Shown here: in pieces, positions 6,041-48,147 of the stretch
Position numbering within the stretch: the first letter of the stretch is position 1
How the letters are laid out: every line of letters starts with the position of its first letter
IMG/VR virus record: IMGVR_UViG_3300020045_001036
Location: 1 to 64,000 of that record
Direction: 5' to 3' (one strand)
DNA length: 64,000 bases
Source of the DNA: a virus
Notes under the pieces: model-generated
The model's input: only the letters and a program-made list of their open reading frames with translations
Database searches by the model: none
Told to the model about the DNA's origin: nothing
Translations under genes and position numbers: made by a program

Positions 6041-7507
6041 TTATCCAATTTTTCTTTTCAAGATCAACTCACCACATTTAGTGATATCTTCAATATGTAC
6101 ACCACATATTTTAGATACGTGCATACTGTAGTGTTCACCTGAGTGAGACATTAGACCACCTTTGTTAGCTCCATAAGGATTAACTAATCCACCTACATAT
6201 CCAAATTTGTAACCATCTTTTTTAGATACAAGTTGAACATTTGAATTTCCAGAATCTCCAGAGAAATCTAAGAAAGTAAATCTCATAGATTCTACAGGAT
6301 AACCTGTAATAGGATCAATTTCAAAGTTGATTTGTCTATCATCATACAAAGGATTATGAACTAATTCTAGTTCAGCACCATTATGCATTTTATATTGTAC
6401 GAATTGGTATCCAATAGAATAAGCATTAGAGTGAACTGCAGAAGAAGCTGATTGTACTGGATTGAAGTTTTGATTAGCAATAACCCAACCTCTTTTATCC
6501 ATCAAATCTTGCATAGCTCTGTTGAACAACAACATACCATACTCTCCTGTAAATACTTTAATTTTTCTTCCGGAACCTGGCTTAACTCTAGAGTAGAAGA
6601 TATCTAACAAGAATTCTTCAATAAGTTTAGCTGTTAGTTCTGTGTAATAGTGAACATGAGAATCTTCTAGTTTTTCTTGTATACCTGAGAATGAATCTAC
6701 AGATCTACCAGTTGAACCTTCAATACTTCTAGCTTTTCTATTATACCAATAGGCTCTTTCAAGTTCTCTATACCATTGTTGCCAGTATTCTACCTCAGCG
6801 TATTTGATCCATGAATCATGCATTCCACCTTTAGAATCTTGCATTTTAACTGCCAATACTTCTTCAGAAGCATAATCAGTAACTTCATATTTCTTTCTGA
6901 ATTTACCCATAGAGTCTCTTAAAGTAAGAGGCATACTGTATTGGGTAGATCCATCTTGGTTAGAACCCTCTTCTGCTGTAGAGTACAATTTAGCCCATTG
7001 TTGACCTGGAGTAAGATAAGTTACAGGTAAGAATGCTTGGAAATCATCTGATACCAATCTTACTGTGTAAACCCAACCATTACCATGTCTTTGTGGATCT
7101 TCCATGATTCTACATTGATACTTCTGGCCTGCTGTACCTGGACTAATAACGTCTGTTGCTTGGAACCAATTCTCATCTAGTTTAATCTTAAATGCTGTTT
7201 TACCTTGACCTGGAGTTGTATCTGCAGATGGTAAAACATTTTCAAGAACTACAAGAGGTCTAGTTGTAGCACCTTTCAACTGCCATTCCCATTCCATTGT
7301 TCCAATTACTTTTTCAGATCCTGAAGCCCAAGCAATACTTGAAAGTGGATTATCTGAGTAATAGTTTTGTGCTGAGAAGAGTTGATTCATCTTCCCTTCA
7401 AACACAGTAGGCTTAGCAGACAAGTTAGCTCCTAAGTGGTTAAGCTCTGTCATGTTAGCATGCCATGGCATTTGTTTTGTTTTAAATTTACTTCCTAATG
7501 TTGCCAT
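6041..7507 (-). CDS. Major capsid protein (crAss-like)
   Basis: 488 aa; EWEWQL, KLDENWF, TGEYGM..F and HNPLYDD motifs; downstream of portal and scaffold. Confidence 0.9.
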   Translation of the reverse strand: MATLGSKFKTKQMPWHANMTELNHLGANLSAKPTVFEGKMNQLFSAQNYYSDNPLSSIAWASGSEKVIGTMEWEWQLKGATTRPLVVLENVLPSADTTPGQGKTAFKIKLDENWFQATDVISPGTAGQKYQCRIMEDPQRHGNGWVYTVRLVSDDFQAFLPVTYLTPGQQWAKLYSTAEEGSNQDGSTQYSMPLTLRDSMGKFRKKYEVTDYASEEVLAVKMQDSKGGMHDSWIKYAEVEYWQQWYRELERAYWYNRKARSIEGSTGRSVDSFSGIQEKLEDSHVHYYTELTAKLIEEFLLDIFYSRVKPGSGRKIKVFTGEYGMLLFNRAMQDLMDKRGWVIANQNFNPVQSASSAVHSNAYSIGYQFVQYKMHNGAELELVHNPLYDDRQINFEIDPITGYPVESMRFTFLDFSGDSGNSNVQLVSKKDGYKFGYVGGLVNPYGANKGGLMSHSGEHYSMHVSKICGVHIEDITKCGELILKRKIG

Positions 7508-14498: not shown

Positions 14499-15038
14499 TT
14501 ATTTTAAGTTAAAAGTTTTCATATCATTAAGTCTATTATTCCATCCTTTTCTAAAGACTTCTAGTTTAGTATTTTTCTTAATTATATCTTTTATAAATTG
14601 TTCTCTAGCTAGATATAGTTGTTGTATAAATTTCTTTTCATCTTTAGCTATAGTAGCATTCACTGCTTCAATAGTTTTTGGTCCAACTACTCCATCTTCT
14701 ACAAGACCTAGTAATCTTTGAGGTATCTTAATACCCCATGCTCCGGAACACCATGTCCAGTCTACTAGAATATTAGCTACTACTTGAGAATCTATTTGAC
14801 TAGCTTTCCATCTACCCCAATACCCTTTCTCCATGATTTTAGTAGCATCTACTACAGTAATAGCTTTTAAATCTACTACATCAATATCATGGTCTCCATC
14901 TTTATCGTATCCTTGTGTTTGCCATACTTCAAGTGTTACCCCCATATTAGTAGCTCCTCCTGGATCATTCACATTGTTGGAAAATCCACCCTCCCATTTT
15001 AATACAAATGGCATTAACTTACTTACTTCTGCTTTCAT
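14499..15038 (-). CDS. Endolysin, glycoside hydrolase family 108 with PG-binding domain
   Basis: WEGGFSNNVNDPGGATNMGVT, DGVVGPKT, FRKGWNNR. Confidence 0.9.
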   Translation of the reverse strand: MKAEVSKLMPFVLKWEGGFSNNVNDPGGATNMGVTLEVWQTQGYDKDGDHDIDVVDLKAITVVDATKIMEKGYWGRWKASQIDSQVVANILVDWTWCSGAWGIKIPQRLLGLVEDGVVGPKTIEAVNATIAKDEKKFIQQLYLAREQFIKDIIKKNTKLEVFRKGWNNRLNDMKTFNLK

Positions 15039-27850: not shown

Positions 27851-29488
27851 ATGAGTAAATCAAATACAAAACTCGCAAGTACCATAGGTACACTAAAGCC
27901 TAAACCTGCACTAGTTGCATCTAAGGCTATTCCAAAACCCGATACTACAAATATATCGGGCCATTCTGCTTATACTCAAGATAAATGGAGGAGATTATTG
28001 ACAATATTGAATACATCAAAGTTACAATCCCAATACTATAGAAGTGAATCTGCTACATTGAAAGATTTACACACTTTAATTGCTGATTGTGCTCAAGAAA
28101 ATTTATATTTAACTTGTCAATGCATTGTCTATTCTAGATGTGTAGGAGAAGGTCTTAGGACTATATCCCATGCTGCATCTGTATTTATATCCTCATATTT
28201 AGCTGGCGCTGAATTCTCAAAGAGATTTTACTCTCAATGGGATAAAGGTAAAAAGCAAGGTGGCGTTATATTTAGACCAGATGATATGTCTGAAATTATG
28301 CAAGGTTTTATTGCTTTGAATACTTCAACAGAATCCAGTCCTAAACTAACTAATGCAATGAAAAAAGGTTTTGCTAACGCTATTGAATCTTATGATTCCT
28401 ATCCGTTATTAAAATACAAATCTTCACTGATTGACGTTATAAATCTAGTTAGACCGAGTTCAGCTAGATCTAAAGCTACTGTTGAGGTGAATAATGAATC
28501 TATTAAAACAATAGATGCTATTATGAGAGGCCTTAAAGTGTCTGCTGACACATGGGAAGTAAATCAAGTAAAAGCTGGCCAAATTGTTGCTGAAGCTGTT
28601 AAAGAAGGTAAAGTTGATATTATTGAAGCTAAAACTATTTTAACAGATGCTAAAGCAGAAAATTGGGATGAACTGTTATCTAATGATAAATTAGGGATTC
28701 TAGCCGCTATTAGGAATATTAGAAATATTCTATTAAACAATCCTAAAAAATCTACAATAGCTACATTAGATACTCTATTATCTAATCCGGATAGAATTAG
28801 AGCTGGTAAAATATTCCCGTATCAATTAGATATGGCAAATGAACTTATCATGCAAGAATTTCCACATAATCCAGATGCTAGACAGTTACAAGTAGCATTA
28901 CTTAAAGGCTACATGCATGCTATACCTAATCTTGCTGCTATTCTACCGGGTAGGAATGTCGTATTTTTAGACCAATCTGGTTCTATGGATAAAGTAATTA
29001 GATATGGTACTAAAAATGGTTCACAAAGCTGTTCTAAAAAAGCATCAATGCTAGCTGCTACCATAGCGTTAGCTACTAATGCTGACATTATTAGATTTGG
29101 TTCCAATGCAATGTACACTAATTACAGTTCTGTTGTAGATGTGTTTACACTAGCAGGACAATTAGATAACCCAAGAATGGGTGGTACTAGCTTATCGAGT
29201 GCTTGGAAGTTAGCTTCAAAGAAAGAAATTGGATATGATAGAGTTTTTATCTTATCTGATAATGAATGTAATATAGGATCTTCTTATGATAGATACAAAC
29301 AGTATGTAGAAAAAGTTGGTGATCCTTATATATATTCAGTAGATCTTGCAGGATATGGCACTGATTGTATGGCGGGAGACAAAGTAAAGTATTTTTATGG
29401 TTATGGTATGGCTATGTTTGAAGATATTGCTAAATTAGAGTATAATCCTGATCACCATATGGATAAAGTTAAACAAATAATAATCTAA
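27851..29488 (+). CDS. rsr: Ro60/Rsr-like TROVE + vWA domain RNA-binding protein
   Basis: TTN.SG..AY N-terminus, RPDDM, LLKY, DTWE, LAAIRNIRNI, KIFPYQ, MIDAS DQSGSM, GGT, ILSDNE. Confidence 0.9.
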   Translation: MSKSNTKLASTIGTLKPKPALVASKAIPKPDTTNISGHSAYTQDKWRRLLTILNTSKLQSQYYRSESATLKDLHTLIADCAQENLYLTCQCIVYSRCVGEGLRTISHAASVFISSYLAGAEFSKRFYSQWDKGKKQGGVIFRPDDMSEIMQGFIALNTSTESSPKLTNAMKKGFANAIESYDSYPLLKYKSSLIDVINLVRPSSARSKATVEVNNESIKTIDAIMRGLKVSADTWEVNQVKAGQIVAEAVKEGKVDIIEAKTILTDAKAENWDELLSNDKLGILAAIRNIRNILLNNPKKSTIATLDTLLSNPDRIRAGKIFPYQLDMANELIMQEFPHNPDARQLQVALLKGYMHAIPNLAAILPGRNVVFLDQSGSMDKVIRYGTKNGSQSCSKKASMLAATIALATNADIIRFGSNAMYTNYSSVVDVFTLAGQLDNPRMGGTSLSSAWKLASKKEIGYDRVFILSDNECNIGSSYDRYKQYVEKVGDPYIYSVDLAGYGTDCMAGDKVKYFYGYGMAMFEDIAKLEYNPDHHMDKVKQIII

Positions 29489-29490
29489 TC

Positions 29491-29721
29491 ATGAGTGTAT
29501 TCAAAATAACTCCAAAATCTCTTCAAAAAAAGAGTACATCTATACTTAACGTATTTAAAAATACTGTAAACGATCTTAATAAGATCAATACAGCAATTTT
29601 TGCAGAAACTCTCAGAAAATCTGAAGAAATAGTTAAACTAGAAGCTGAAACTGAAGAATTAACAACTCTACACAAAGCCAATAGCAAAATTGTAGATAAA
29701 ATTAATCAATTCCTTAGTTAG
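29491..29721 (+). CDS. Small coiled-coil protein
   Basis: Directly after Ro60. Confidence 0.55.
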   Translation: MSVFKITPKSLQKKSTSILNVFKNTVNDLNKINTAIFAETLRKSEEIVKLEAETEELTTLHKANSKIVDKINQFLS

Positions 29722-29723
29722 GT

Positions 29724-30044
29724 ATGTTTGTAAAAGTAGGAATGCAAGAATACCTAGTGTCATTTAATCATAACACAGAAGGTACTCCTATCTTTAACAA
29801 AAAAGGTAAAATTATTCAAAAAGAGAATAGACACACTAGGTGTATTATTAAGGAAGTGAATAATAGAATCAAAGGTGATGTCATAGGGGTTGGTTATTCA
29901 AAATGCCACCCTGAAGACTTCTTTGTTAAAGAAGAAGGAAGAATGCTATCTCTAATAGCAGCATTAAATGATGCTGAGTTTAGTAGAGAAGCAAAACAAA
30001 CGGTGTGCAATGCATACAAAAACAGAAAATCAATTAAATCATAA
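29724..30044 (+). CDS. Conserved phage hypothetical protein
   Basis: GYSKCHPEDFFVKEEGR motif. Confidence 0.6.
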   Translation: MFVKVGMQEYLVSFNHNTEGTPIFNKKGKIIQKENRHTRCIIKEVNNRIKGDVIGVGYSKCHPEDFFVKEEGRMLSLIAALNDAEFSREAKQTVCNAYKNRKSIKS

Positions 30045-30046
30045 GT

Positions 30047-30355
30047 ATGAAAAAAATATTATCATTATTAGTGCTTATTCTTATCTTTAGCTCTTGTACA
30101 GATGCTAATAAAGCTAAGTTATATGGCTATGGAAAAGATTTTAAAATTGAAATGCTTAGTTCTGCTACAGGACAAGTAATAAAAATTTATCATAGTTCTG
30201 GTAAAGTGAGTTCAGAGGGTCAATCTGATGGATATTATTTTATGGATCAAGAAACTGGTAAGCTGACAGAAATAGCAGGAGGTATAATTGTTATAACTCC
30301 TGAAGAATATGTTGCAACAGGAACCTTAATTCAGAAAGTAGATTCAATACAGTAA
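30047..30355 (+). CDS. Lipoprotein
   Basis: MKKILSLLVLILIFSSC lipobox. Confidence 0.75.
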   Translation: MKKILSLLVLILIFSSCTDANKAKLYGYGKDFKIEMLSSATGQVIKIYHSSGKVSSEGQSDGYYFMDQETGKLTEIAGGIIVITPEEYVATGTLIQKVDSIQ

Positions 30356-30712
30356 ACCAGTAAACATCAAACCTAAACATGATTCTAGTTGCGAGAGTGG
30401 AACAGATAAAAAGAGAGACCTACGTGTTAATGCCACACTAGTTAGGATGATTACAAAGAATACAACTAAGGGACCAAGCCTGCTTATATTTTTGGTGTGA
30501 GTTGCTAGTAAGTAGTTGTAATGTGTTGCCTCGTAAGAGGGAAGTATGAAGGAGATAGTTGAAATCTACCCAACACAATAATCTAATAACCCCAAGCACC
30601 ATAACTGATAACTTGGTATGCTGGGGTTAGAAGGTTATAAATAAGTTAAACAAGTCTTGTAGCTTCTCAGAGAGAGGGAAGGTTAGATTTTATAACTAAA
30701 TATAATACATAA

Positions 30713-31080
30713 GGGCCCGACTGGTTTTGAGGTGGGATTAGTAAGTACAAAAGGACAGCCAGAGAGACAACTGTAAACTAAGGTGAATTTATTTAAACGG
30801 AAAAGCACAAATCAAAGCCAATATGGCTAAAGTTATGACATTACTTAATGGTGGAACCTCTGTAGAGAGTGATACTGAAATGTTAATGGCAGCATAATTT
30901 AATACGCATGAGTTTCCTTGAACTATAAACAAGGTGGTGGAATCCAACTAAATCAGTTGGCTCTAATCTTCCACATTTAGTAGTGTTTAAAGGAAGTAAA
31001 AGATTAAATACTACAATAAGCTGTAATATCCTTAGTAATGAACGTTGCTATCGACCGGAGTTCGAATCTCCGCGGGTCCA
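30713..31080 (+). ncRNA. ssrA: tmRNA
   Basis: Acceptor GGGCCCG/CGGGTCC-A with G3-U70; GGTTTTGA; GAC-CGGAG-TTCGAAT-CTCCG T arm; tag ORF 30799-30897 ending AA-stop. Confidence 0.9.
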
Positions 31081-31096
31081 CTAAAACAATAGAGAT

Positions 31097-31303
31097 ATGA
31101 AAATATTTGAAATTCGTGAATACTCTAATGGAGGATTTCATGACCAAGGAGAAGCTATAGGTTATGCTAAAGAAAACTCTTTAGAAGAAGCTGAGGCAAA
31201 GCATAAACCAAATAATTGGTTTAGAGTTAGAGAAATCACTCAACAGAGATATGATTTTCTAAAGAAACAAGCTGAGGAAAACATGAAAAGGTTTACCTTA
31301 TAA
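31097..31303 (+). CDS. Hypothetical protein
   Basis: 68-aa ORF. Confidence 0.55.
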   Translation: MKIFEIREYSNGGFHDQGEAIGYAKENSLEEAEAKHKPNNWFRVREITQQRYDFLKKQAEENMKRFTL

Positions 31304-31321
31304 AATAAAAAGATTAAAATG

Positions 31322-31353
31322 TTTGTTTGTAAAGATTAGTATTTATATCTTTG
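31322..31353 (+). promoter_or_regulatory. Bacteroidota sigma-A promoter for the ncRNA/tRNA cluster
   Basis: TTTG-N20-TATCTTTG, 7 nt before Y-like copy 1. Confidence 0.8.
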
Positions 31354-31360
31354 CACAACA

Positions 31361-31439
31361 AAATAGAGTAGTTAAAGTTAAGTTACTTCAAAAAATATGG
31401 ATTTTTAAACAACAAACTTAACTCCTGTTCTCTCTATTT
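31361..31439 (+). ncRNA. Y-RNA-like element, copy 1
   Basis: AAATAGAG/CTCTATTT and AGTTAAGTT/AACTTAACT stems with TAGTTA, ACTTC and TTCT core. Confidence 0.7.
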
Positions 31440-31443
31440 AAAT

Positions 31444-31517
31444 TCCTCTCTAGCTCAATTGGTTAGAGCTCCGCACTGTTAATGCGGAGGTTCCTGGTTC
31501 GAGCCCAGGGAGAGGAG
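31444..31517 (+). tRNA. tRNA-Asn(GTT)
   Basis: Full cloverleaf, loop CTGTTAA. Confidence 0.95.
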
Positions 31518-31527
31518 CAATAAAAAC

Positions 31528-31602
31528 TGGGGGAAACGATAGTTCGAACCTATCTGGGGCCACAATAGTGTGGTTCTATCGTCTAGGGGATAGGACGCCC
31601 TA
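31528..31602 (+). ncRNA. Circularly permuted tRNA-like RNA (T arm - closed acceptor stem - D arm)
   Basis: The 3' half precedes the 5' half and all stems pair. Confidence 0.8.
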
Positions 31603-31610
31603 AAATTACA

Positions 31611-31733
31611 AATACAAGGTAGTTATAACTAAGTTACTTCAACTTTAGCTCATAGAGCAAATAACTTTTAATTATTCGGAACCAGTTAAATCTGGTATTT
31701 TGCAAACACCTTAGTTAGCATTCTCCTTGTATT
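31611..31733 (+). ncRNA. Y-RNA-like element, copy 2, with degenerate tRNA-Lys(TTT) insert
   Basis: AATACAAGG/CCTTGTATT and TAACTAAG/CTTAGTTA stems; internal D-, anticodon- and T-like arms. Confidence 0.75.
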
Positions 31734-31789
31734 ATTATTTCTTTATGTGAATTATATGTTGTACCTTTGTACATATTAATTCACATGTT

Positions 31790-32254
31790 ATGAACACAGA
31801 ACAATTTATACCTTGGTTTACAGGGTTATTTGAAGGAGAAGGATCCTTCTACATTACAAAAGGTATAGCAAAAGGCTTATCCTTGACATCTACAGATTTA
31901 GATGTGTTAGAGAGAATACAAGAGCATTTAGGTGGCAATATCTGTGCAAGTACAACAAAGAGAGAGCATTGGAAACAAGCCTATATTTGGACTATACACG
32001 GTATAAATGCTAAAAGGGTTGTAGAAAATATGCAACCATACCTTTTAAATAGAAGATTAAATAGATCCCAGGAATGGATATCTTTATATGATGCTAATGT
32101 AGAAATACAAGCAACTAAGAAATTAGAACAAGAACAAAAAATTCAACAAATTTTAATTTTAAGTGAAACAGGTTTAACACATTCTCAAATAGCTTCACAA
32201 ATGGGTTATGAAAGAAGTAGTGTAACTAAGATCATTAACAAGATTAGACCTTAG
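31790..32254 (+). CDS. Free-standing LAGLIDADG homing endonuclease with C-terminal HTH
   Basis: WFTGLFEGEGSF motif; TACCTTTG at 31762-31769. Confidence 0.85.
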   Translation: MNTEQFIPWFTGLFEGEGSFYITKGIAKGLSLTSTDLDVLERIQEHLGGNICASTTKREHWKQAYIWTIHGINAKRVVENMQPYLLNRRLNRSQEWISLYDANVEIQATKKLEQEQKIQQILILSETGLTHSQIASQMGYERSSVTKIINKIRP

Positions 32255-32283
32255 TCTCACCTTTCACACTAATCTTTATTATT

Positions 32284-32469
32284 ATGAGCAGAACTTTAAG
32301 AAGATCAAAAAAAGATAATAAAATATATCCAGAAGGACAATTTCCTAAAGTCTTTAGATATGTATGTAGATGTTCTTATTGTACAGGAGTAGATAAACAG
32401 ACTCTAGTTAATAAGATTCAAAAAAAAGAGTTAAAACAATTAATAAACTACAATGCAACATGGATTTAA
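32284..32469 (+). CDS. Small basic Cys-containing protein
   Basis: MSRTLRR...CRCSYC. Confidence 0.5.
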   Translation: MSRTLRRSKKDNKIYPEGQFPKVFRYVCRCSYCTGVDKQTLVNKIQKKELKQLINYNATWI

Positions 32470-32554
32470 ATAAATATCTAGTATTAGGAATATTAGGTTT
32501 AAATATTGCATTATATCTTTATATCTATATCGTAGATATAAAGAAAAATAAGAT

Positions 32555-32635
32555 AACACAATAGTAATGAGAAAGTTACTTCAACAAAATCTGTAACATT
32601 TTATAAAACCAACTTTCTTAAATGTTCTTTGTGTT
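32555..32635 (+). ncRNA. Y-RNA-like element, copy 3
   Basis: AACACAA/TTGTGTT and TGAGAAAGTT/AACTTTCTTA stems, same core. Confidence 0.7.
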
Positions 32636-32638
32636 TAT

Positions 32639-32712
32639 GGCCCTTTAGCTCAGCTTGGTAGAGCAGTTGACTCATAATCAAAAGGTCTCAGGTTCAAATC
32701 CTGGAGGGGCCA
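32639..32712 (+). tRNA. tRNA(CAT), likely Ile2
   Basis: GGCCCTT acceptor and GA-CTCATAA-TC, typical of Ile2. Confidence 0.85.
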
Positions 32713-32743
32713 CAACTAATTAATTAACTAAACAATTAAAATC

Positions 32744-32887
32744 ATGCCTAAAGTAAAAATAAAACAACAGACTCCACAAGAACGCGCTGATGCGTTCCAT
32801 AATTGGATGCAAAATAAAGTCAAATCTGTACATCTAGCTGATAATGCTAAAATGTCGGAAGCTTATGTAAAAGTATATAAAGCATAG
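32744..32887 (+). CDS. 47-aa hypothetical protein
   Basis: MPKVKIKQQTPQERADAFHNWM... Confidence 0.45.
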   Translation: MPKVKIKQQTPQERADAFHNWMQNKVKSVHLADNAKMSEAYVKVYKA

Positions 32888-32992
32888 CCCTATACTTGAT
32901 GGCTATAGGGTTTAAGTAAGCACATACATTCAGATAACATTACACACTAAGAACAATTGAATGTTCATTCTGACGTATGTGCTTTAAAATAT

Positions 32993-33063
32993 AGGATATA
33001 GTTATAAGTAAGTTACTTCAAAAACGCTATTTTTAAAAAAAACTTACTTAGCTTTCTTATCCT
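32993..33063 (+). ncRNA. Y-RNA-like element, copy 4
   Basis: AGGATA/TATCCT and TAAGTAAGTT/AACTTACTTA stems, same core. Confidence 0.7.
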
Positions 33064-33187
33064 TAAACTTAATGAGAGAACCGTGATATGCACCTTTAGG
33101 TAGTATAGAGCAAACGTCATACTCATTACAATACTAGTCCATACGGGTAGATGGTTAACTTGCTAATACCATGCAAGCTAGTAAAAT

Positions 33188-33258
33188 TGGGATATGGTGT
33201 AATGGTAACACAACTGTTTTTGGTGCAGTCTTTCAAGGTTCGAGTCCTTGTATCCCTA
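33188..33258 (+). tRNA. tRNA-Gln(TTG)
   Basis: Cloverleaf, loop TTTTGGT. Confidence 0.9.
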
Positions 33259-33442
33259 CTACTCTGTTTACACCTTTGTCATACAAAGTGGGGAGCCATG
33301 CCCAGAACACTGGTGAGTTTTGTATGTTATGTAGAAATTTAAACATTCAGGTCTTAGTTACTTGCAAATAACTAAGATAACAGTTAAGAAGTATATATCA
33401 GTATGTGCGAGTACACAGAACTATAGAGAGCTTAACTTTAAT

Positions 33443-33524
33443 GGCTATGTGGCGGAATTGGTAGACGCACTAGATTTAGGATCTAGCACCGTAAGGTTTG
33501 TGGGTTCGAGTCCCACCTAGGCCA
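33443..33524 (+). tRNA. tRNA-Leu(TAG)
   Basis: Cloverleaf with variable arm; two acceptor-stem mismatches. Confidence 0.85.
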
Positions 33525-33649
33525 CAGCAGTTACTTGATTCTCGTATAGTACAGTAACAATTATCAGGATATGAGATGTCCATGGATAGTCCTTTAGTGA
33601 TGTGGAATTCCATCCTAACATGCCTGAGTAGGAAAGCTTAGGCACCAAT

Positions 33650-33720
33650 GCGTGGGTGATGTAATGGTAACATGGTGGTCTCCAAAACCATTCTTAGAGG
33701 TTCGAGTCCTTTCCTGCGCG
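33650..33720 (+). tRNA. tRNA-Trp(CCA)
   Basis: Cloverleaf, loop CTCCAAA, G73. Confidence 0.9.
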
Positions 33721-33837
33721 CAAAGAGATAGTATATTTAAGTATATAGTAACTAGTATAACTGTTAGAGTAATTAATAATGTATGCGAAATAGTTATTCA
33801 ATTCTGAAAGCAATTTCTCTTTTTAAATGAAAAGTAT

Positions 33838-33999
33838 ATGGGATACAAAGATGAAAATACAAAGCACAGAGTAGGAGTGTTAACACCTAAAAAAGGTTTT
33901 AAATGTCCTAAATGTGGCGATGATAAAATTAAAGTTAAAGCTACACTTGTAGTATGTCCTTCTTGTAAGAAGATAGTAGACGGTAAATATTTAAAATAA
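33838..33999 (+). CDS. 53-aa zinc-ribbon protein
   Basis: CPKC...CPSC. Confidence 0.55.
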   Translation: MGYKDENTKHRVGVLTPKKGFKCPKCGDDKIKVKATLVVCPSCKKIVDGKYLK

Positions 34000-34066
34000 A
34001 GATTAAGGGTCTTGTAATGTATACACATCTAAGATTGTCACTTATCCATGTGGGTATCTTTATTAT

Positions 34067-34139
34067 GGTCCTGTAGCTCAGTTGGTAGAGCACCTGCCTG
34101 AAGAGCGGGGTGTCAGAAGTTCGAGTCTTCTTGGGACCA
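34067..34139 (+). tRNA. tRNA-Phe(GAA)
   Basis: Cloverleaf, loop CTGAAGA. Confidence 0.9.
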
Positions 34140-34200
34140 CAAATGTGATTAAACTTTTTCTATGGGGTCACAAAGAGATATATCTCTACATAGAAGCAAT

Positions 34201-34272
34201 GGCCTATTCGTCTATTGGTTAGGACCCCAGGTTTTCAGCCTGGTAAGAACAGTTCGACTCTGTTATAGGCTA
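34201..34272 (+). tRNA. tRNA-Glu(TTC)
   Basis: Cloverleaf, loop TTTTCAG. Confidence 0.9.
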
Positions 34273-34277
34273 CAAAT

Positions 34278-34351
34278 CGTGAGGTAGAGCAGATGGTTAG
34301 CTTGCTGGGCTCATAACCCAGAGGTCGGTGGTTCGAATCCACCCCTCGCAA
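34278..34351 (+). tRNA. Initiator tRNA-fMet(CAT)
   Basis: C1:A72 mismatch and three G-C pairs in the anticodon stem. Confidence 0.92.
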
Positions 34352-34407
34352 CTAAAGTGGAGTATACGTGTAGTAACCACAAGATTGATATCATCTACTA
34401 CACTCTA

Positions 34408-34486
34408 GGGTTTATGGCAGAGCGGTCGAATGCGGCAGACTGTAAATCTGTTATCCCACACCGTGGTTCGAATCCACGTGGACCCA
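34408..34486 (+). tRNA. tRNA-Tyr(GTA)
   Basis: Cloverleaf, loop CTGTAAA; unpaired 10-nt variable region. Confidence 0.88.
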
Positions 34487-34534
34487 CAACAAGTCCCTCT
34501 AGACATGGATTGTTAAGTTTGTTATTAGTTAATT

Positions 34535-34564
34535 AACCCTGCATAGCAATATGTGGGGTTTTTT
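34535..34564 (+). terminator. Terminator ending the tRNA cluster
   Basis: AACCCTGCATA-GCAA-TATGTGGGGTT followed by a T-run. Confidence 0.75.
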
Positions 34565-34597
34565 GTGTCTAGTAGGTCAAGATTAAATTTGAGAATT

Positions 34598-35263
34598 ATG
34601 TTGAAGAAGAATAAAAAAAGTAGAGTACTAATAATAGGAGATCTACATGAACCTTTTAGTTTAAAAGGGTATATGAAACATTGTAAAGATGTTTACAAAA
34701 AACACAATTGTGATACAGTAGTATTTATAGGCGATATCATTGACAATCATGCTAGTTCTTATCATGAGTCTGACCCTGATGGGCATAGTGCGGGGAGTGA
34801 GTTAGATTTAGCAATTAATAAAATTAAATGTTGGTATAGAGCTTTTCCTAAAGCCACTGTGATTATAGGTAATCATGATAGACTAATATTCAGAAAAGCA
34901 TTTAGTTCCGGCATTCCAAAAAGATGGATTAAGAACTATTCAGAAATATTAAAAACTCCAGGATGGGATTTTAGGGAATCTGTTGAGATAGATGGTATAT
35001 CTTATATTCACGGAGAAGGTGGTACAGCTAGAAATAGAGTTAGAAAAGATCTTTGTTCTATAGTGCAAGGTCACTTACATACACAATCTTATACAGAATG
35101 GGTAGTAGGTAAAAACTTCAAAATATTTGCTATGCAAGTAGGTTGTGGTATTGATGCTAAGGCCTATGCTATGGCTTATGCTAAAAACTTTCCAAAACCT
35201 GCAATTAGTTGTGGAGTAGTCTTAGAAGGAGACACAGCATTAAATGAAATGATGAATTTATAA
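34598..35263 (+). CDS. Calcineurin-like metallophosphoesterase
   Basis: GDLH, GDIID, GNHD, HG, GHLH; GTG at 34553 lies within the terminator, so ATG 34598 is preferred. Confidence 0.85.
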   Translation: MLKKNKKSRVLIIGDLHEPFSLKGYMKHCKDVYKKHNCDTVVFIGDIIDNHASSYHESDPDGHSAGSELDLAINKIKCWYRAFPKATVIIGNHDRLIFRKAFSSGIPKRWIKNYSEILKTPGWDFRESVEIDGISYIHGEGGTARNRVRKDLCSIVQGHLHTQSYTEWVVGKNFKIFAMQVGCGIDAKAYAMAYAKNFPKPAISCGVVLEGDTALNEMMNL

Positions 35264-43875: not shown

Positions 43876-44295
43876 ATGAGAGTTATTAAAGTATATTCAA
43901 CAGTAGGTGCATCAGGAGAAGTTGTAACAAATGTAGAAACATTAAGAGAATTGAAGCCAATTCTAACAAGTAAAGGTATTGATATTACTGGTATGAAACT
44001 AGTGGTAGGGGAAACAAGAAATGAGTTATCTATTGATGAAGCAGTTCTTCCAACGGGGGATTTCAAATTATATTTGATGCCTCAAAAGACTAAATCTGGT
44101 AGCCTTGAGGATCAAGTAGAAGAAGTTGAAAGTATTGTGTATAGAATTGAAGGTAAGTTAGATACTGTTTTATCTATATTACAAAAAGGAGTAGGAGCTT
44201 CTAGCAGCCCATCTTTAAAAGTTCTAAGAAGTGCAGAAGATGAAGCAGCTATGAGAGATATGGCAGCATTATCTGGTGAAAACAGAGAATGGTAA
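43876..44295 (+). CDS. Ubiquitin-like (beta-grasp) protein precursor
   Basis: 75-aa domain ending KTKSG, plus a 64-aa extension; first gene of the E2/JAB/E1 cluster. Confidence 0.7.
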   Translation: MRVIKVYSTVGASGEVVTNVETLRELKPILTSKGIDITGMKLVVGETRNELSIDEAVLPTGDFKLYLMPQKTKSGSLEDQVEEVESIVYRIEGKLDTVLSILQKGVGASSSPSLKVLRSAEDEAAMRDMAALSGENREW

Positions 44296-44303
44296 TAATA
44301 ACT

Positions 44304-44345
44304 AAGAGAGAGGCTATCCATTAGGGTGGTCTCTTTCTTTTTTTT
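44304..44345 (+). terminator. Intrinsic terminator between Ubl and E2
   Basis: AAGAGAGAGGCTATCC-ATTA-GGGTGGTCTCTTTCTT followed by a T-run. Confidence 0.7.
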
Positions 44346-44354
44346 AACTACAAC

Positions 44355-45557
44355 ATGAATATAGAAATATTAGAAAGAAAGTTAAGAACTGGGTCTAGAT
44401 CTAGAGATTTTCAATGGTATAGAAAATTGTTTGTAAAAGATCGATTGTATATAGGAGCTGATCCTATGACTGCGGCAGTTTTTGAACATTTTAGACTAGC
44501 AGTAAAAACTGTAGAAGAAATATACCCGGGAGCTTGGGATATAGAATTTGGTGTGGATAGTTATCAATACCTAGATAATAAAGTTATAATAAATCTTAGA
44601 GGTATAAATATAAAATTTCCAGAAGTTACAATAAGAAATTCTGTAAGAAAAAGTCATTTAATTAAAGATCTATTTATATTGACTAGATTTAGAATCTATG
44701 ATAATAAATTAAGAATAGAAGGTGTGTATGGTACCAGAACTACTTTAACCTATGCAGAATATAATAGTAGATACCTACATAGTCACCTAAATAAAAATAG
44801 AATAGATCCTTCGTATGAACATTTTTATTTCCAAAAATTCTGTACAGGATCTGGTTCTATTAATATTGCTATGGCGGATTTGAATGCCCAAGGATTTAAT
44901 GCTGAAAGATTTATAAGTTATCTTTTAAATTTAGATACATTAGCTTCATGGGAATCTTTAGAGGGAGTACCTTATGTAAAGATAGCTAGTATTAATTCTT
45001 TAGAAGAAGGTACACAAATGTATAACTCAGCTAGAAGTGATGTTGCAAAAATGTTTATTACTGCTTTAAAAAGATTTGCAACTAGTGTTTATAAACCGGA
45101 AATTGATTTTATGTTAGAACACTCTGGAGTATCTCTTGCAGATAATGATAGGTATAAAGAATTTTTACACAGAGTGCCTTTAACAGACACAGATAAGAAA
45201 TACTTATTATGCTTTAAGAGTGAAGAGGGTGTATATTACTCTTATGGACAAACTCCAAGAGCTGCACCATTACTTTTATATCCTAATAAATATCTATTTC
45301 AAGGAGAAGAAATAGAAATTAAAATAACAAATCCTCCAGAAAATGCAACTACTGAAATACAGTATGAGTTTCATCCAAAAATTAAATTAGAAATTAAAAA
45401 ACAATTAGAATATGCAGCCAATAAAGCAATCCTTAGAAAGACTACAGTTGACAGATACAAAAATTCAACTAGTGATATCAGAGAGAATCCTCAACCAGAT
45501 CCAGTACCTGTGCCAACAGATAGCGAAAGTGGAGTGGAGTGGGATATTGTATTATAG
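44355..45557 (+). CDS. E2-like (UBC fold) conjugating enzyme candidate
   Basis: YLHSHL...FC163TGSG resembles the E2 HPN...C motif; operon context. Confidence 0.6.
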   Translation: MNIEILERKLRTGSRSRDFQWYRKLFVKDRLYIGADPMTAAVFEHFRLAVKTVEEIYPGAWDIEFGVDSYQYLDNKVIINLRGINIKFPEVTIRNSVRKSHLIKDLFILTRFRIYDNKLRIEGVYGTRTTLTYAEYNSRYLHSHLNKNRIDPSYEHFYFQKFCTGSGSINIAMADLNAQGFNAERFISYLLNLDTLASWESLEGVPYVKIASINSLEEGTQMYNSARSDVAKMFITALKRFATSVYKPEIDFMLEHSGVSLADNDRYKEFLHRVPLTDTDKKYLLCFKSEEGVYYSYGQTPRAAPLLLYPNKYLFQGEEIEIKITNPPENATTEIQYEFHPKIKLEIKKQLEYAANKAILRKTTVDRYKNSTSDIRENPQPDPVPVPTDSESGVEWDIVL

Positions 45558-46626
45558 TATAAATGGGTCAATTAAAGATCCTGGTGCTATGATATTAACA
45601 GTAGAAGATATTCTACCAATGAATAAAGGTACACAAGCTTACACAGAATATAATTTAGATGAAAGAGTTATCGATTATATGATGGATAATGAAACTATGG
45701 AAAAAGGTTGGAAAATGGGGCACATACATAGCCATAATACCATGGGAGTATTCTTTAGTGGTACAGATTGGTCTGAACTAGAAGATAATGCACCACATCA
45801 TAATTTCTATTTATCTCTTATTGTAAACAACTTTATGGACTTTTGTGCTAAAGTATGTTTCATATCTGAAGTAAAAGGTACTAAAGATTTTGAGTTCATG
45901 GCTAAAGATGAGGAAGGTAATGAATATGTGTATATGGCCAAACCTTATGAAGTTAAACAAAAGAAACTAATAGTATTTGACTGTGATATTAAATCACCAG
46001 TATCAGCTATAGCAATAGAAGAAAGTTTCAGAACTAAAGTAACAGGTATTATTACAGATGCAGAAAAGAAAGCTGCAGCACTTGTAGCAGCTAGAGCTGC
46101 TAATCCATCTACTACATCTTATGCTGGATGGGATGGAGGACAAAGAGGTGTTATTCAAGACCCTAAGAAACATATGGGTAAAGTTATTCCAATGACTCCT
46201 GCACATGGCTCAGAGATTAAAAGATGGACACAAGCAGATTTTAGTTCTTCTGTAAAAACATCTGTGGGAGATGCACAAGATTTAGAAGATACAATAGAAG
46301 ATTTTGCTCAACATATACTATTATTAGGTAAAGATTTGGAAACTTTTGTAGACTTAGAAGATGTATGTGAACATTATGCTAAATATAAAGTGTCCCATGA
46401 TTTTGTAGCGGGAGAAGTTGTAAAACAATATTTTGAGTTGTATAGTAGTTTCTTTAAAGATTCTAAAGAAGAAGATGAGATGACTGCATTTATAGTTAAC
46501 ACTGAACTAGTAATAGATGAGTATAGACATGAAGTTAAAATGGCAGATTCTGACGATGTATCCGGATTACTTACTAAAGTAGCTGATAGTTTAGATATTA
46601 TGCTATCTGCATTTAAAACAATTTAG
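45412..46626 (+). CDS. JAB/MPN+ metalloprotease
   Basis: JAMM motif E41...H106-S-H108-x7-S116-x2-D119. Confidence 0.88.
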   Translation: MQPIKQSLERLQLTDTKIQLVISERILNQIQYLCQQIAKVEWSGILYYSINGSIKDPGAMILTVEDILPMNKGTQAYTEYNLDERVIDYMMDNETMEKGWKMGHIHSHNTMGVFFSGTDWSELEDNAPHHNFYLSLIVNNFMDFCAKVCFISEVKGTKDFEFMAKDEEGNEYVYMAKPYEVKQKKLIVFDCDIKSPVSAIAIEESFRTKVTGIITDAEKKAAALVAARAANPSTTSYAGWDGGQRGVIQDPKKHMGKVIPMTPAHGSEIKRWTQADFSSSVKTSVGDAQDLEDTIEDFAQHILLLGKDLETFVDLEDVCEHYAKYKVSHDFVAGEVVKQYFELYSSFFKDSKEEDEMTAFIVNTELVIDEYRHEVKMADSDDVSGLLTKVADSLDIMLSAFKTI

Positions 46627-46627
46627 T

Positions 46628-46741
46628 ATGAAATGTGAACATTGTAAAAAAGAAAAAGAGACAGTAGAAACAAGACCTACCAGAAATGGAGATTGTAACT
46701 ATTGTGAAGAATGTTATGAGGTACAAATATTAATGAGTTAA
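46628..46741 (+). CDS. 37-aa zinc-finger microprotein (not in ORF track)
   Basis: MKCEHCKKEKETVETRPTRNGDCNYCEECYEVQILMS fills the JAB-E1 gap exactly. Confidence 0.55.
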   Translation: MKCEHCKKEKETVETRPTRNGDCNYCEECYEVQILMS

Positions 46742-46744
46742 AAT

Positions 46745-47470
46745 ATGAATTTAGAACAAGCAGGTAGATTTAAAGATGCACCATGGTTCCCTCTAGATGA
46801 GGTAAATGTAATTGTAGGTGGTGTAGGTGGTATAGGTTCATGGTTAACATTAATGTTATCTAGAGCCGGATTTATACCAATGGTGTATGATTTTGACACA
46901 TTTGAGATACATAATATGTCAGGTCAGTTAGTACCGGAAAGATTAATAGGTACAATTAAAGTAGATGCAGTAGCAGAAGTAGTAAAAGAATTTACTGGAA
47001 CTACGATACATACCTTCAATGAGAAGTATACAGCTGAGTCAATGTCTCATCACTATGTATTCTCTGGGTTTGATAATATGCAAGCTAGAAAGGATATGTT
47101 TAAAGCTTGGTGTGATTATGTAGTAGATTGGCAAGCTGAAGGGCATAAAGCTAAAATGTTAGACACTACATATCTTCAAGACATACCAATCTTTATAGAT
47201 GGTAGACTCTTAATGGAGCAAATGCAGATATTCTGTGTTACTCCAGATAGAATTGAAGACTATAAGAAACATTTGTTTGATGATGCTGAGGTAGCAGAAG
47301 CTCCTTGTACATTGAAACAAACATCACATTCAGCAGCTATGATAGCTTCTCATATGGTAGGCTTCTTTACTAACCACATGACTAATGTATATGCTAAGGA
47401 TGTGATTAGAAATGTTCCATTTCAATGGGAATACTTTATTCCTCTTGATTTAATAACAGTAGAAGAATGA
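46745..47470 (+). CDS. ThiF/E1-like adenylating enzyme
   Basis: GVGGIGS, DFD..E.HN, K, FDN..AR, DGR, APC188T. Confidence 0.9.
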   Translation: MNLEQAGRFKDAPWFPLDEVNVIVGGVGGIGSWLTLMLSRAGFIPMVYDFDTFEIHNMSGQLVPERLIGTIKVDAVAEVVKEFTGTTIHTFNEKYTAESMSHHYVFSGFDNMQARKDMFKAWCDYVVDWQAEGHKAKMLDTTYLQDIPIFIDGRLLMEQMQIFCVTPDRIEDYKKHLFDDAEVAEAPCTLKQTSHSAAMIASHMVGFFTNHMTNVYAKDVIRNVPFQWEYFIPLDLITVEE

Positions 47471-48147
47471 CAGCATCACAAATAATTTACATTCCAGATC
47501 TTTCCAGTTATGTATATACCAACTCTACTTACTTAACTCATTTTAGAGGTTCTAAAACAGGAACCTCTGATTGTAACTTTTATGTGCCACTACATGCTAT
47601 AATGGCACATGAATTACTTACATTTGATGTTGGTATTAGAGTGATGGAATATAAAACTTGTAGTATACCTATAGACTATCAAAGGTCATGTTTTAGTAGA
47701 TATGATGCATTTTTAAGTATACTACTAAATGGTACTTATGCAGGAAGTTTTAAGTACTCTGTAGCAGGAGAGATCTGCTATGTTATAGTACAAAGAGGTA
47801 TTATTTTAAATACTGAAGGAGAGATTCTTATGTGCTTAGCACTAGATAGGGATTATGTGATGAATACAGATACAAATACAATTAGGAATAACCCTGATGC
47901 AAAGAAAGGTGCTGTATTTATTAGTAATGACTATGTAAACAATCCTAAATATAAGAATTTAAAAAAGAAAATAGACGCAATATATGTAGCTGAATGTTTA
48001 GCTTTAGGTATGGATGTTATCCAAACTGAGAAGATAGATAAATGGCTATATAAGAACAACTTTAGTGCAATGAAATTTAAAACAGTTGCTGCACAGCAAA
48101 AGTTTTTAAAAGAAGATGTGCCTAAAGAAATGATAAAAGAATTATAA
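47467..48147 (+). CDS. Hypothetical protein coupled to E1
   Basis: ATGA overlap with the E1 gene. Confidence 0.6.
   Translation: MTASQIIYIPDLSSYVYTNSTYLTHFRGSKTGTSDCNFYVPLHAIMAHELLTFDVGIRVMEYKTCSIPIDYQRSCFSRYDAFLSILLNGTYAGSFKYSVAGEICYVIVQRGIILNTEGEILMCLALDRDYVMNTDTNTIRNNPDAKKGAVFISNDYVNNPKYKNLKKKIDAIYVAECLALGMDVIQTEKIDKWLYKNNFSAMKFKTVAAQQKFLKEDVPKEMIKEL

What the first reader, a model, noticed from the sequence alone, without database searches (positions are those of the whole stretch)
27851..33063. Phage Ro60 with a four-copy, covarying Y-RNA-like ncRNA family in the tRNA cluster
Seen: four elements (31361-31439, 31611-31733, 32555-32635, 32993-33063) share one architecture: outer stem, TAGT(T/A)A, inner stem ending AAGTT, ACTTC, a variable cargo, the inner stem complement, TTCT, outer stem. 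Stem sequences differ but still pair in every copy (AAATAGAG/CTCTATTT; AATACAAGG/CCTTGTATT; AACACAA/TTGTGTT; AGGATA/TATCCT), while the loop motifs are near-invariant. That is the signature of a protein-bound structured RNA. Copy 1 begins 7 nt after a consensus sigma-A promoter, and copies 1 and 3 end 3-4 nt before tRNAs, so RNase P could release them. Established: Ro60/Rsr binds the 5'/3' terminal stem of Y RNAs, which are usually encoded near rsr and tRNAs. Inference: these are the phage's own Ro60 ligands, using a binding motif different from the metazoan GGUCCGA/UUGACC type, and they form modular RNPs with interchangeable cargo.
Basis: partly seen in the sequence, partly recalled or inferred. 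Interest (0 to 1): 0.9.

Follow-up and report, generated by a model that had tools for sequence, protein, structure and literature searches.

The report
Phage Ro60 with four partner RNAs
A marine crAss-like phage encodes its own Ro60 ring protein and, in its tRNA cluster, four small RNAs that share one conserved "handle"; the same handle sits beside Ro60 genes in dozens of other phages, so this looks like an uncatalogued type of Y RNA.

Summary
Four + strand elements (31361-31439, 31611-31733, 32555-32635, 32993-33063) share one architecture: outer stem, UAGUWA, 10-bp inner stem ending GUU, ACUUC, variable cargo, inner 3' strand, UUCU, outer 3' strand. They are the only four in the 95-kb phage genome.

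A covariance model built from short-cargo copies found 137 matches in 81 phage loci that encode a relative of the window's Ro60 (27-61% identity). All 137 lie on the Ro60 strand and most lie within 1 kb of the gene. Both stems covary: 84.5% of cells are paired against 58% in shuffles, and 16 of 17 pairs show double changes.

Two DNA-pattern scans of IMG/VR that ignored the protein recovered true elements almost only on contigs that carry this Ro60. The exceptions are small fragments.

Cargo is modular: short loops, tRNA-like bodies, or back-to-front tRNA mimics of the YrlA type.

The handle lacks the published CGAA/GNCGAA Ro60 motif and matches no Rfam family. ORF 27851-29488 is a genuine Ro60 homolog.

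Verdict: very likely phage Y RNAs with a new Ro60-docking handle, a new variant of a known kind. Binding and discrete transcripts are untested.

This scan has already noted similar handle-RNA and Ro60 pairings in other phages.

The parts
27851..29488 (+). Ro60 (TROVE + vWA) homolog, 545 aa, with a DxSxS MIDAS motif at D374/S376/S378
   Evidence: Pfam TROVE 23.1 bits (cut-off 23) and vWA_Ro60 24.2 bits. Profile A2 against the PDB: phiLo Ro60 9KOP 2.2e-9, Xenopus Ro60 1YVP 1.7e-8, human RO60 5.4e-6. The top 13 Foldseek hits of the AF2 model are all Ro60/Rsr. There are 1612 homologs, many carrying PF05731 and PF25045. The invariant columns of the alignment include D374, S376 and S378.
31322..31353 (+). 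Candidate Bacteroidota-type promoter (TTTG-N20-TAtcTTTG) ending 7 nt before copy 1
   Evidence: One of 5 matches to TTTG-N18-21-TAnnTTTG in 64 kb, against 2.1 expected. The consensus itself comes from general knowledge of Bacteroidota sigma-A promoters. This is a motif match only.
31361..31439 (+). Handle RNA copy 1, 25-nt A/U-rich cargo
   Evidence: R1 73.3 bits; fold; sequence.
31444..31518 (+). tRNA-Asn(GUU), 4 nt after copy 1. RNase P cleavage at its 5' end would set the 3' end of copy 1
   Evidence: ARAGORN and Rfam 65.9 bits. The processing step is inferred.
31611..31733 (+). Handle RNA copy 2, whose cargo is a degenerate tRNA-like body (31639-31704, Lys-UUU-like)
   Evidence: R1 46.5 bits. 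tRNA model 36.3 bits with a shortened D loop and T loop and a mispaired acceptor. ARAGORN does not call it.
32555..32635 (+). Handle RNA copy 3, 28-nt cargo with a 5-bp hairpin and a 7-nt loop
   Evidence: R1 64.9 bits; fold.
32639..32713 (+). tRNA-Met(CAU), 3 nt after copy 3
32993..33063 (+). Handle RNA copy 4, 21-nt cargo
   Evidence: R1 68.2 bits; fold.
34535..34560 (+). Intrinsic-terminator-like hairpin at the end of the tRNA cluster, the likely end of the RNA operon
   Evidence: 11-bp stem followed by a T run. This is a motif match only.

Best explanation
The four elements are phage-encoded Y-RNA-like partners of the phage's own Ro60 protein. They are probably transcribed with the tRNA cluster from the promoter-like site at 31322-31353 and released by tRNA-processing enzymes; RNase P cuts 3-4 nt after copies 1 and 3. 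Each folds into a constant handle. The handle is an outer stem, a bulged U, two conserved pairs (A-U, G-C), an asymmetric internal loop (5' Y-n-A-A, 3' A-Y-U-U-U), an inner stem of about one helical turn ending G-U-U, and an unpaired ACUUC at its top. Ro60 is inferred to dock on this handle. The variable cargo would be the working end that brings other factors to Ro60, or presents a decoy. By analogy with the Deinococcus Rsr-Y RNA-PNPase complex and the phiLo Ro60-Yrl-PNPase complex, such factors could be a host exoribonuclease or tRNA-binding enzymes. Shown here: the architecture, the covariation, and the exclusive strand-matched co-occurrence with Ro60. Inferred: transcription and processing, direct binding, and the effector.
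For: Structure. RNAalifold on a plain MAFFT alignment predicts both helices, and 12 of 13 pairs show compensatory changes. On 122 distinct model hits, 84.5% of cells are paired against 57.9% in shuffles and 39-59% with slid partners; 16 of 17 pairs have double changes. An extra pair covaries: A-U in 94 rows, G-C in 12.

Conserved unpaired bases: U 94%, A 89%, G 99%, ACUUC 99-100%, UUCU 78-98%.

Partner. All 137 hits lie on the Ro60 strand. 60 of 81 sources searched have a hit, mostly within 1 kb of the gene and sometimes 9-80 nt away. Protein-blind DNA scans gave true elements on Ro60 contigs in 3 of 3 cases and about 30 of 36. No other ORF neighbouring the window's Ro60 is conserved across these loci. 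14 element-bearing loci have no free tRNA gene, so the link is to Ro60 and not to tRNA clusters.

Kinship with Y RNAs. Cargo includes T-arm, capped acceptor and D-arm mimics in the YrlA order. Rfam YrlA matches two handle-bearing elements at 36-37 bits.

Protein. It is a Ro60 homolog.
Against: There are no expression, end-mapping or binding data. The handle lacks the CGAA/GNCGAA motif that phiLo Ro60 and bacterial Rsr are reported to use (PMC12135203, PMC4201824). In the window the RNAs lie 1.9-3.6 kb from Ro60, not adjacent to it. 21 of 81 sources gave no model hit, although some are truncated and long cargo is penalised by the model. Six element-bearing contigs show no Ro60, but all are 2-37% complete fragments. 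The pair counts come from a model-fitted alignment. ACUUC conservation is inflated because the model selects for it.
Confidence: 0.78

Rival explanations
1. The hairpins are processing signals, for example RNase III or RNase E sites, that punctuate the polycistronic tRNA transcript. They would have no specific tie to Ro60.
For: They are roughly 18-20-bp interrupted duplexes lying between genes and tRNAs in what looks like one promoter-to-terminator unit. Some relatives enclose tRNA-like bodies that ARAGORN calls as tRNAs; 40 such calls lie inside elements.
Against: 14 element-bearing Ro60 loci have no free tRNA gene. In L007 three elements follow Ro60 directly, are followed by a terminator-like hairpin, and no tRNA is called in 14 kb. 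Protein-blind scans return elements almost only on Ro60 contigs. Near-invariant unpaired bases and a fixed 10-bp spacer are not typical of host nuclease sites in phages of very different hosts.
Confidence: 0.08
2. The handle is a leader-trailer clamp for phage tRNAs and tRNA mimics. Ro60 would act as a folding or quality-control chaperone on these precursors, and the short-cargo copies in this window would be degenerate remnants.
For: About 36 of 122 distinct elements carry a normal-order tRNA-like body and 18 a permuted one. Several embedded bodies score 51-62 bits on the tRNA model (L068 sequence). Ro60 is known to bind misfolded small RNAs (general knowledge; introduction of PMC12135203).
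Against: 57 of 122 elements, including three of the four here, have 11-45-nt cargo with no tRNA shape, yet their handles are the best conserved. The tRNA-like body of copy 2 is too degenerate to be a working tRNA.
Confidence: 0.1
3. The handle binds a different, unidentified phage or host protein. Its linkage to Ro60 would reflect a shared operon and not direct contact.
For: No binding data exist, and the handle differs from every published Ro60 site.
Against: None of 14 neighbouring window ORFs is conserved across the 80 Ro60 loci. Hosts must be diverse, since the contigs run from about 95-kb crAss-like genomes to 360-kb records and the matched elements have 21-55% GC, while the handle stays constant.
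Confidence: 0.04

Closest known systems
Bacterial Rsr (Ro60) with YrlA/YrlB Y RNAs (Salmonella, Mycobacterium and mycobacteriophages; Chen et al. 2014, PMC4201824; Rfam RF02553)
   Same: The small RNAs are encoded on the Ro60 strand near the gene. The 5' and 3' ends form a long stem with an internal loop, and the distal module is often a tRNA mimic in the order T arm, capped acceptor, D arm. Several RNAs occur per locus, some without a tRNA-like domain, as with YrlB.
   Different: There is no GNCGAAN0-1G motif; the handle reads UAGYNA / GUU-ACUUC / UUUCU instead. The window has no RF02553 hit at E<=10, and relatives reach only 35-42 bits against a gathering score of 69. Many members carry a tRNA-like body in normal order. 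Copy number reaches 6 or more per locus. The RNAs are embedded in phage tRNA clusters.
Thermus phage phiLo Ro60 with Yrl1/Yrl2 (PMC12135203; PDB 9KOP, 9L5Y)
   Same: A phage-encoded Ro60 has phage-encoded stem-bulge-stem RNAs next to the gene. It is the closest solved structure to the window's protein. It gives a worked example of a phage Ro60-RNA complex engaging host PNPase.
   Different: The phiLo RNAs were picked by their CGAA motif, which contributes to binding. The handle here has no CGAA. The proteins are only about 18% identical in the structural alignment.
Metazoan Y RNAs (Rfam RF00019)
   Same: A terminal stem carries a single-nucleotide bulge on the 5' strand and conserved bases around it. 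A variable loop region lies beyond the stem, and there are two to four paralogs per genome.
   Different: The sequence motif differs; GGUCCGA/UUGACC is recalled from the literature and quoted in PMC4201824. Those RNAs are Pol III transcripts, there is no Rfam match here, and there is no tRNA-like cargo.

Membership tests
Y RNA (functional class: Ro60-bound small RNA) | Encoded with or near a Ro60/Rsr gene, on the same strand | tested here: met
   In the window the RNAs lie 1.9-3.6 kb downstream on the same strand. All 137 hits in Ro60 loci are on the Ro60 strand and most are within 1 kb. Protein-blind scans agree.
Y RNA (functional class: Ro60-bound small RNA) | The 5' and 3' ends pair into a long stem with a conserved bulge or internal loop, and a variable module lies beyond it | tested here: met
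   Covariation of both helices. Bulged U plus a covarying A-U/G-C pair. Cargo of 11-108 nt in several classes.
Y RNA (functional class: Ro60-bound small RNA) | Physically bound by Ro60 and present as a discrete stable transcript | not testable with these tools
   This needs RNA-seq or Northern blots, a pull-down and EMSA.
YrlA (Rfam RF02553) | Match to the RF02553 covariance model at its gathering score (69 bits) | tested here: not met
   No hit at E<=10 in 30500-35000 and none at gathering score in the whole window. Handle-bearing relatives reach 36-37 bits.
YrlA (Rfam RF02553) | GNCGAAN0-1G (CGAA) motif in the 5' strand of the Rsr-binding stem | tested here: not met
   The consensus of 122 distinct elements has UAGYNA at that position and no CGAA. 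The motif definition is from PMC4201824.
YrlA (Rfam RF02553) | tRNA-like domain in the order T arm, closed acceptor stem, D arm | tested here: inconclusive
   Copies 1, 3 and 4 lack it, like YrlB. Copy 2 has a normal-order degenerate tRNA body. 18 relatives have the YrlA order.
Ro60 / TROVE protein family | TROVE (HEAT-repeat ring) module followed by a vWA domain | tested here: met
   Pfam TROVE 23.1 bits against a cut-off of 23; vWA_Ro60 24.2 bits, below its cut-off of 27.7. The profile matches phiLo, Xenopus and human Ro60. Foldseek gives full-length alignments to Ro60/Rsr structures only, but the N-terminal half of the model has low confidence.
Ro60 / TROVE protein family | MIDAS DxSxS motif in the vWA domain | tested here: met
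   D374, S376 and S378 are invariant in alignment A2; the sequence is.
RNase III-type processing hairpins of phage polycistronic RNAs | Occurrence independent of any particular RNA-binding protein gene | tested here: not met
   True elements are found almost only on contigs with this Ro60.

The most novel reading that the evidence does not exclude
The handle is a portable Ro60-docking tag that phages graft onto short loops, tRNA mimics, permuted tRNAs and near-canonical tRNAs. The resulting particles would act on the host's tRNA-targeting machinery, for example by decoying or sequestering anticodon nucleases and tRNA-modifying or repair enzymes, or by shielding phage tRNAs. In that case Ro60 with handle RNAs would be a widespread phage counter-defence or translation-takeover system and not a housekeeping RNA quality-control factor.
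Probability: 0.15. Interest if true: 0.85.

Novelty: new variant of a known kind. Interest (0 to 1): 0.6.

Why it matters
Ro60 with Y RNA is a conserved ribonucleoprotein whose RNA recognition has been defined by one motif family (GGUCCGA in animals, CGAA in bacteria and phage phiLo). This is a second, sharply conserved handle that tracks a large, almost purely viral Ro60 branch. That branch has 1612 homologs in the protein search, but only one locus among 185,579 prokaryote species genomes matched the two peptide patterns scanned.

The handle has a fixed one-turn spacer between two invariant unpaired motifs and freely exchangeable heads. That gives a clean system for asking how Ro60 reads RNA and what the heads recruit. 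It also means that many "tRNAs" called in phage tRNA clusters are in fact heads of Ro60-type RNAs. ARAGORN made 40 such calls inside elements in the loci examined.

The general idea of phage Ro60 with phage Y RNAs is published, so the advance is a new family and motif, not a new principle.

Tried and rejected
- Rfam: a direct match was sought and not found. No Y_RNA, YrlA or other family covers the handle at E<=10.
- MAFFT on the four window copies mis-aligned the 3' halves because the cargo lengths differ (A1). I therefore built the model from 17 short-cargo copies of several phages (A3).
- The sigma-70 promoter scan was uninformative: 28 sites found against 33 expected. I used a Bacteroidota-type pattern instead.
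Long contigs of the closest protein homologs (83-86% identical) therefore could not be fetched.
- The genome search 'relatives' is not available for a virus record, so cellular genomes were not searched with the RNA model. The one genome contigs locus, L139 (an Erysipelotrichales MAG), has no convincing element (15.9 bits).
- Published phages: Vibrio phage phiKT1024 and csAssE-Sib gave no R1 hit. LR745206.1 (35.6 bits) and crAss-like cr111_1 (30.0 bits, divergent motifs) each gave one hit upstream of Ro60.
- A link between Ro60 and the ubiquitin-like cassette elsewhere in the window was not supported. Only 1 fetched locus matched any of its ORFs.
- Repeat or mobile-element origin was rejected. 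The stem sequences differ between copies and covary, and the family spans Ro60 proteins down to 27% identity.
- About 49 of the 53 loci from the first DNA scan were chance or coding matches to the 16-base core. The strict architecture filter found nothing comparable there, with one borderline one-mismatch match in L020.
Full report
**What the window is**

The window is the first 64 kb of a single-contig virus record of 95,350 bp with 31.6% G+C. Its nearest DNA matches among deposited phages are Cellulophaga phage phi14:2 and other phages of Flavobacteriia. It is most likely a marine crAss-like phage of a Bacteroidota host.

Positions 30.7-34.5 kb hold a tmRNA gene, nine tRNA genes and a free-standing LAGLIDADG endonuclease gene.

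**Checking the observation**

- AAGTTACTTC occurs four times in the whole genome, all at these sites and all on the + strand. TAGT[TA]A-N5-9-GTTACTTC also occurs four times.
- Each copy folds alone into the proposed two-helix hairpin.
- All four lie outside the long ORFs.
- Copy 1 starts 7 nt after a TTTG-N20-TAtcTTTG site. That pattern occurs only five times in the window.
- Copies 1 and 3 end 4 and 3 nt before tRNA-Asn and tRNA-Met.
- A terminator-like hairpin closes the cluster at 34535-34560.
- Rfam has nothing for the handle even at E<=10.
- The cargo of copy 2 is a degenerate tRNA-like body. It scores 36.3 bits on the tRNA model, with a 3-nt D loop, a 6-nt T loop and a poorly paired acceptor stem.

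**The protein**

ORF 27851-29488 only just reaches Pfam TROVE (23.1 bits, cut-off 23) and falls short of vWA_Ro60. The wider evidence is clear.
- It has 1612 homologs, many with both Pfam domains recorded.
- A nine-sequence profile matches phage phiLo Ro60 (2.2e-9), Xenopus Ro60 (1.7e-8) and human RO60 (5.4e-6) in the PDB.
- The AlphaFold model is poor in its N-terminal half (mean pLDDT 60). Even so, its 13 best Foldseek matches are all Ro60/Rsr structures aligned over their full length.
- The vWA MIDAS residues D374, S376 and S378 are invariant in the alignment.

It is a divergent Ro60. The branch is essentially viral: a pattern scan of one genome from each of 185,579 prokaryote species gave a single MAG contig.

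**Relatives of the RNA**

A DNA-pattern scan of IMG/VR for the 16-base core ignored proteins and returned 53 loci. Only L007, L021 and L022 held the full architecture. All three contigs encode a Ro60 that is 53-56% identical to the window's. In L007 the Ro60 ORF is followed directly by three elements and a terminator-like hairpin, and no tRNA gene is called in the 14-kb locus.

Fetching 80 viral loci through the Ro60 alignment and scanning them with a strict ungapped descriptor gave 54 elements in 36 loci, all on the Ro60 strand.

I then built covariance model R1 from 17 short-cargo copies of ten phages. I searched 1.44 Mb on both strands, covering the window and the 80 loci. There were 137 matches at E<=1 and every one lies on the Ro60 strand. 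60 of the 81 sources have at least one match. Typical distances from the gene are tens to hundreds of bases, on either side of it. In the crAss-like group that includes the window, the elements lie 1.6-6 kb downstream, inside the tRNA cluster.

A second protein-blind DNA scan followed by R1 found true elements on about 36 contigs. About 30 of these carry the Ro60 gene on the same contig, including a further Ro60 group only 35-38% identical to the window's protein. The six contigs without Ro60 are fragments estimated at 2-37% complete.

None of the window's 14 neighbouring ORFs is conserved across these loci. Fourteen element-bearing loci have no free tRNA gene. The constant companion is therefore Ro60, not a tRNA cluster.

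**Structure**

RNAalifold on the plain MAFFT alignment predicts both helices, and 12 of 13 pairs show compensatory changes.

On the 122 distinct model hits, 84.5% of cells form standard pairs. The figure is 57.9% in column shuffles and 39-59% when partners are slid by 1-3 columns. Sixteen of 17 pairs show double changes. That alignment is fitted to the model, which favours the structure.

The unpaired positions are conserved:

| Region | Consensus (frequency) |
|---|---|
| 5' side of the internal loop | U (94%), A (89%), G (99%), Y, optional n, A, A |
| Top of the inner stem | G (94%), U (88%), U (100%) |
| Junction with cargo | ACUUC (99-100%, partly by selection), then usually G |
| 3' side of the internal loop | A, Y, U, U (94%), U (98%), C (86%), U/C |

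The A after the first U covaries with the last base of UUCU: A-U in 94 rows and G-C in 12. When the 5' base is G, the partner is C in 12 of 13 rows. The next G pairs with C or U in 115 of 122 rows.

The handle is therefore a helix with a single bulged U, two conserved pairs, an asymmetric internal loop, a spacer helix of 10 (sometimes 11) bp, and an unpaired pentamer. One helical turn between the two invariant unpaired patches would place them on the same face of the RNA. That would suit a single protein footprint; this last point is inference.

**Cargo**

Among the 122 distinct elements, cargo falls into these classes:

| Cargo class | Count |
|---|---|
| Short cargo, 11-45 nt | 57 |
| tRNA-like body in normal order | about 36 |
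| tRNA-like body in the order T arm, capped acceptor hairpin, D arm (some with an anticodon arm) | 18 |
| Other long forms | 11 |

The T-arm-first order is the YrlA arrangement. The Rfam YrlA model recognises two such handle-bearing elements at 36-37 bits, below its gathering score of 69. ARAGORN makes 40 tRNA calls inside elements.

In L001, one copy of the handle appears circularly permuted and grafted into a tRNA-like body (sequence; read by eye).

In the window, copies 1, 3 and 4 are of the short type, like YrlB. Copy 2 carries a degenerate normal-order tRNA body.

**Comparison with what is known**

Chen et al. 2014 (PMC4201824) reported YrlA-type RNAs next to Ro60 in more than 250 bacteria and phages. 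They proposed GNCGAAN0-1G as the Rsr-binding motif.

The 2025 study of Thermus phage phiLo (PMC12135203) found two Y-like RNAs by their CGAA motif. It showed that single substitutions in CGAA weaken binding three- to four-fold, and that the complex engages host PNPase.

The crAss001 TROVE protein is mentioned as an early gene in a review (PMC10136315), with no RNA partner described there.

The concept of phage Ro60 with phage Y RNAs is therefore published. I found this handle neither in those papers' motif descriptions nor in Rfam 15, nor in two literature searches. I file it as working like a Y RNA. It is not a member of the YrlA family as defined, because the model score and the CGAA motif were both tested and not met.

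**Earlier notes of this scan**

Earlier notes describe similar pairings in other phages. One is a freshwater phage with three handle RNAs after Ro60. Another is a 153-kb crAss-related phage with eight. A third note describes a related module grafted in permuted form into tRNAs. So the scan has seen this before on other DNA. Those notes are unpublished AI notes and I did not count them as evidence.

**Verdict**

The most likely mechanism has four steps.
1. The RNAs are co-transcribed with the tRNA cluster.
2. They are released by tRNA-processing enzymes.
3. Ro60 docks on the bulged-U / ACUUC handle.
4. The variable heads recruit or decoy other factors.

Only the architecture and the co-occurrence are shown. 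Expression, binding and the effector are inferred. I put about 0.78 on "Ro60-partner Y-like RNAs". The remainder is split among a pre-tRNA clamp role, nuclease processing sites and another binding protein.

Noticed in passing
window 31528-31602 (+): Between tRNA-Asn and copy 2 lies a back-to-front tRNA-like module: T arm, acceptor hairpin closed by a 4-nt loop, D arm, and a short closing stem. It has no handle. It resembles the YrlA-type cargo carried on handles in related phages (L007 about 6068-6215, L001 15025-15165). RNAfold draws these arms. Rfam YrlA does not match it.
   Followed up: partly
window 30713-31083 (+): A phage-encoded tmRNA gene (Rfam 56.5 bits, above gathering score) lies just upstream of the handle RNA and tRNA cluster. 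ARAGORN did not call it. L001 has one at the equivalent place, below threshold at 34.5 bits.
   Followed up: no
L001 18551-18671 (+): The related 100-kb phage has an additional YrlA-like RNA (Rfam RF02553, 42.3 bits, below gathering score) with a T arm, capped acceptor and D arm. Its stem has neither the UAGYNA/ACUUC handle nor CGAA. It lies next to a CUA-anticodon (amber-suppressor-type) tRNA that ARAGORN labels tRNA-Pyl.
   Followed up: partly
L001 about 14897-15020 (+): Here the handle is circularly permuted. The inner 3' strand, UUCU, a short capped 'outer' hairpin, UAGUUA, the inner 5' strand and ACUUC sit inside a tRNA-like body that has its own acceptor stem and T arm. This suggests the handle is a self-contained, transplantable module.
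   Followed up: partly
L068 3264-3745 and other loci (L072, L089, L090): Some handles enclose near-canonical tRNA bodies scoring 51-62 bits on the tRNA model, with varied anticodons. ARAGORN makes 40 tRNA calls inside handle elements across the Ro60 loci. Such genes are probably annotated as ordinary tRNAs in phage genomes.
   Followed up: partly
window 32581-32612 (cargo of copy 3) and 31391-31411 (cargo of copy 1): The short cargos can form 5-bp hairpins with 7-nt loops that have U at loop position 2 and a purine at position 6, like anticodon loops (GUA in copy 3). An ortholog in L061 (16029-16106) keeps the UAUGG loop core of copy 1. I did not test this statistically.
   Followed up: no
window 31790-32254 (+): A free-standing LAGLIDADG homing endonuclease gene with a C-terminal HTH lies directly after copy 2, inside the RNA cluster (Pfam).
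   Followed up: no
window 43876-48147 (+): Other first-stage notes flag a ubiquitin-like conjugation cassette here, and notes on other genomes link such cassettes to Ro60. In my set only one fetched locus (L097) matched any of its ORFs, so I saw no linkage at +/-10 kb.
   Followed up: partly
L225 7226-7293 (MT774387.1, crAss-like phage cr111_1) and L226 7543-7615 (LR745206.1, 635-kb uncultured phage): Two deposited phage genomes each have one weaker, divergent handle-like hairpin (30.0 and 35.6 bits) a few hundred bases upstream of their Ro60 genes. It is unannotated in cr111_1, and LR745206.1 has no annotation at all.
   Followed up: partly
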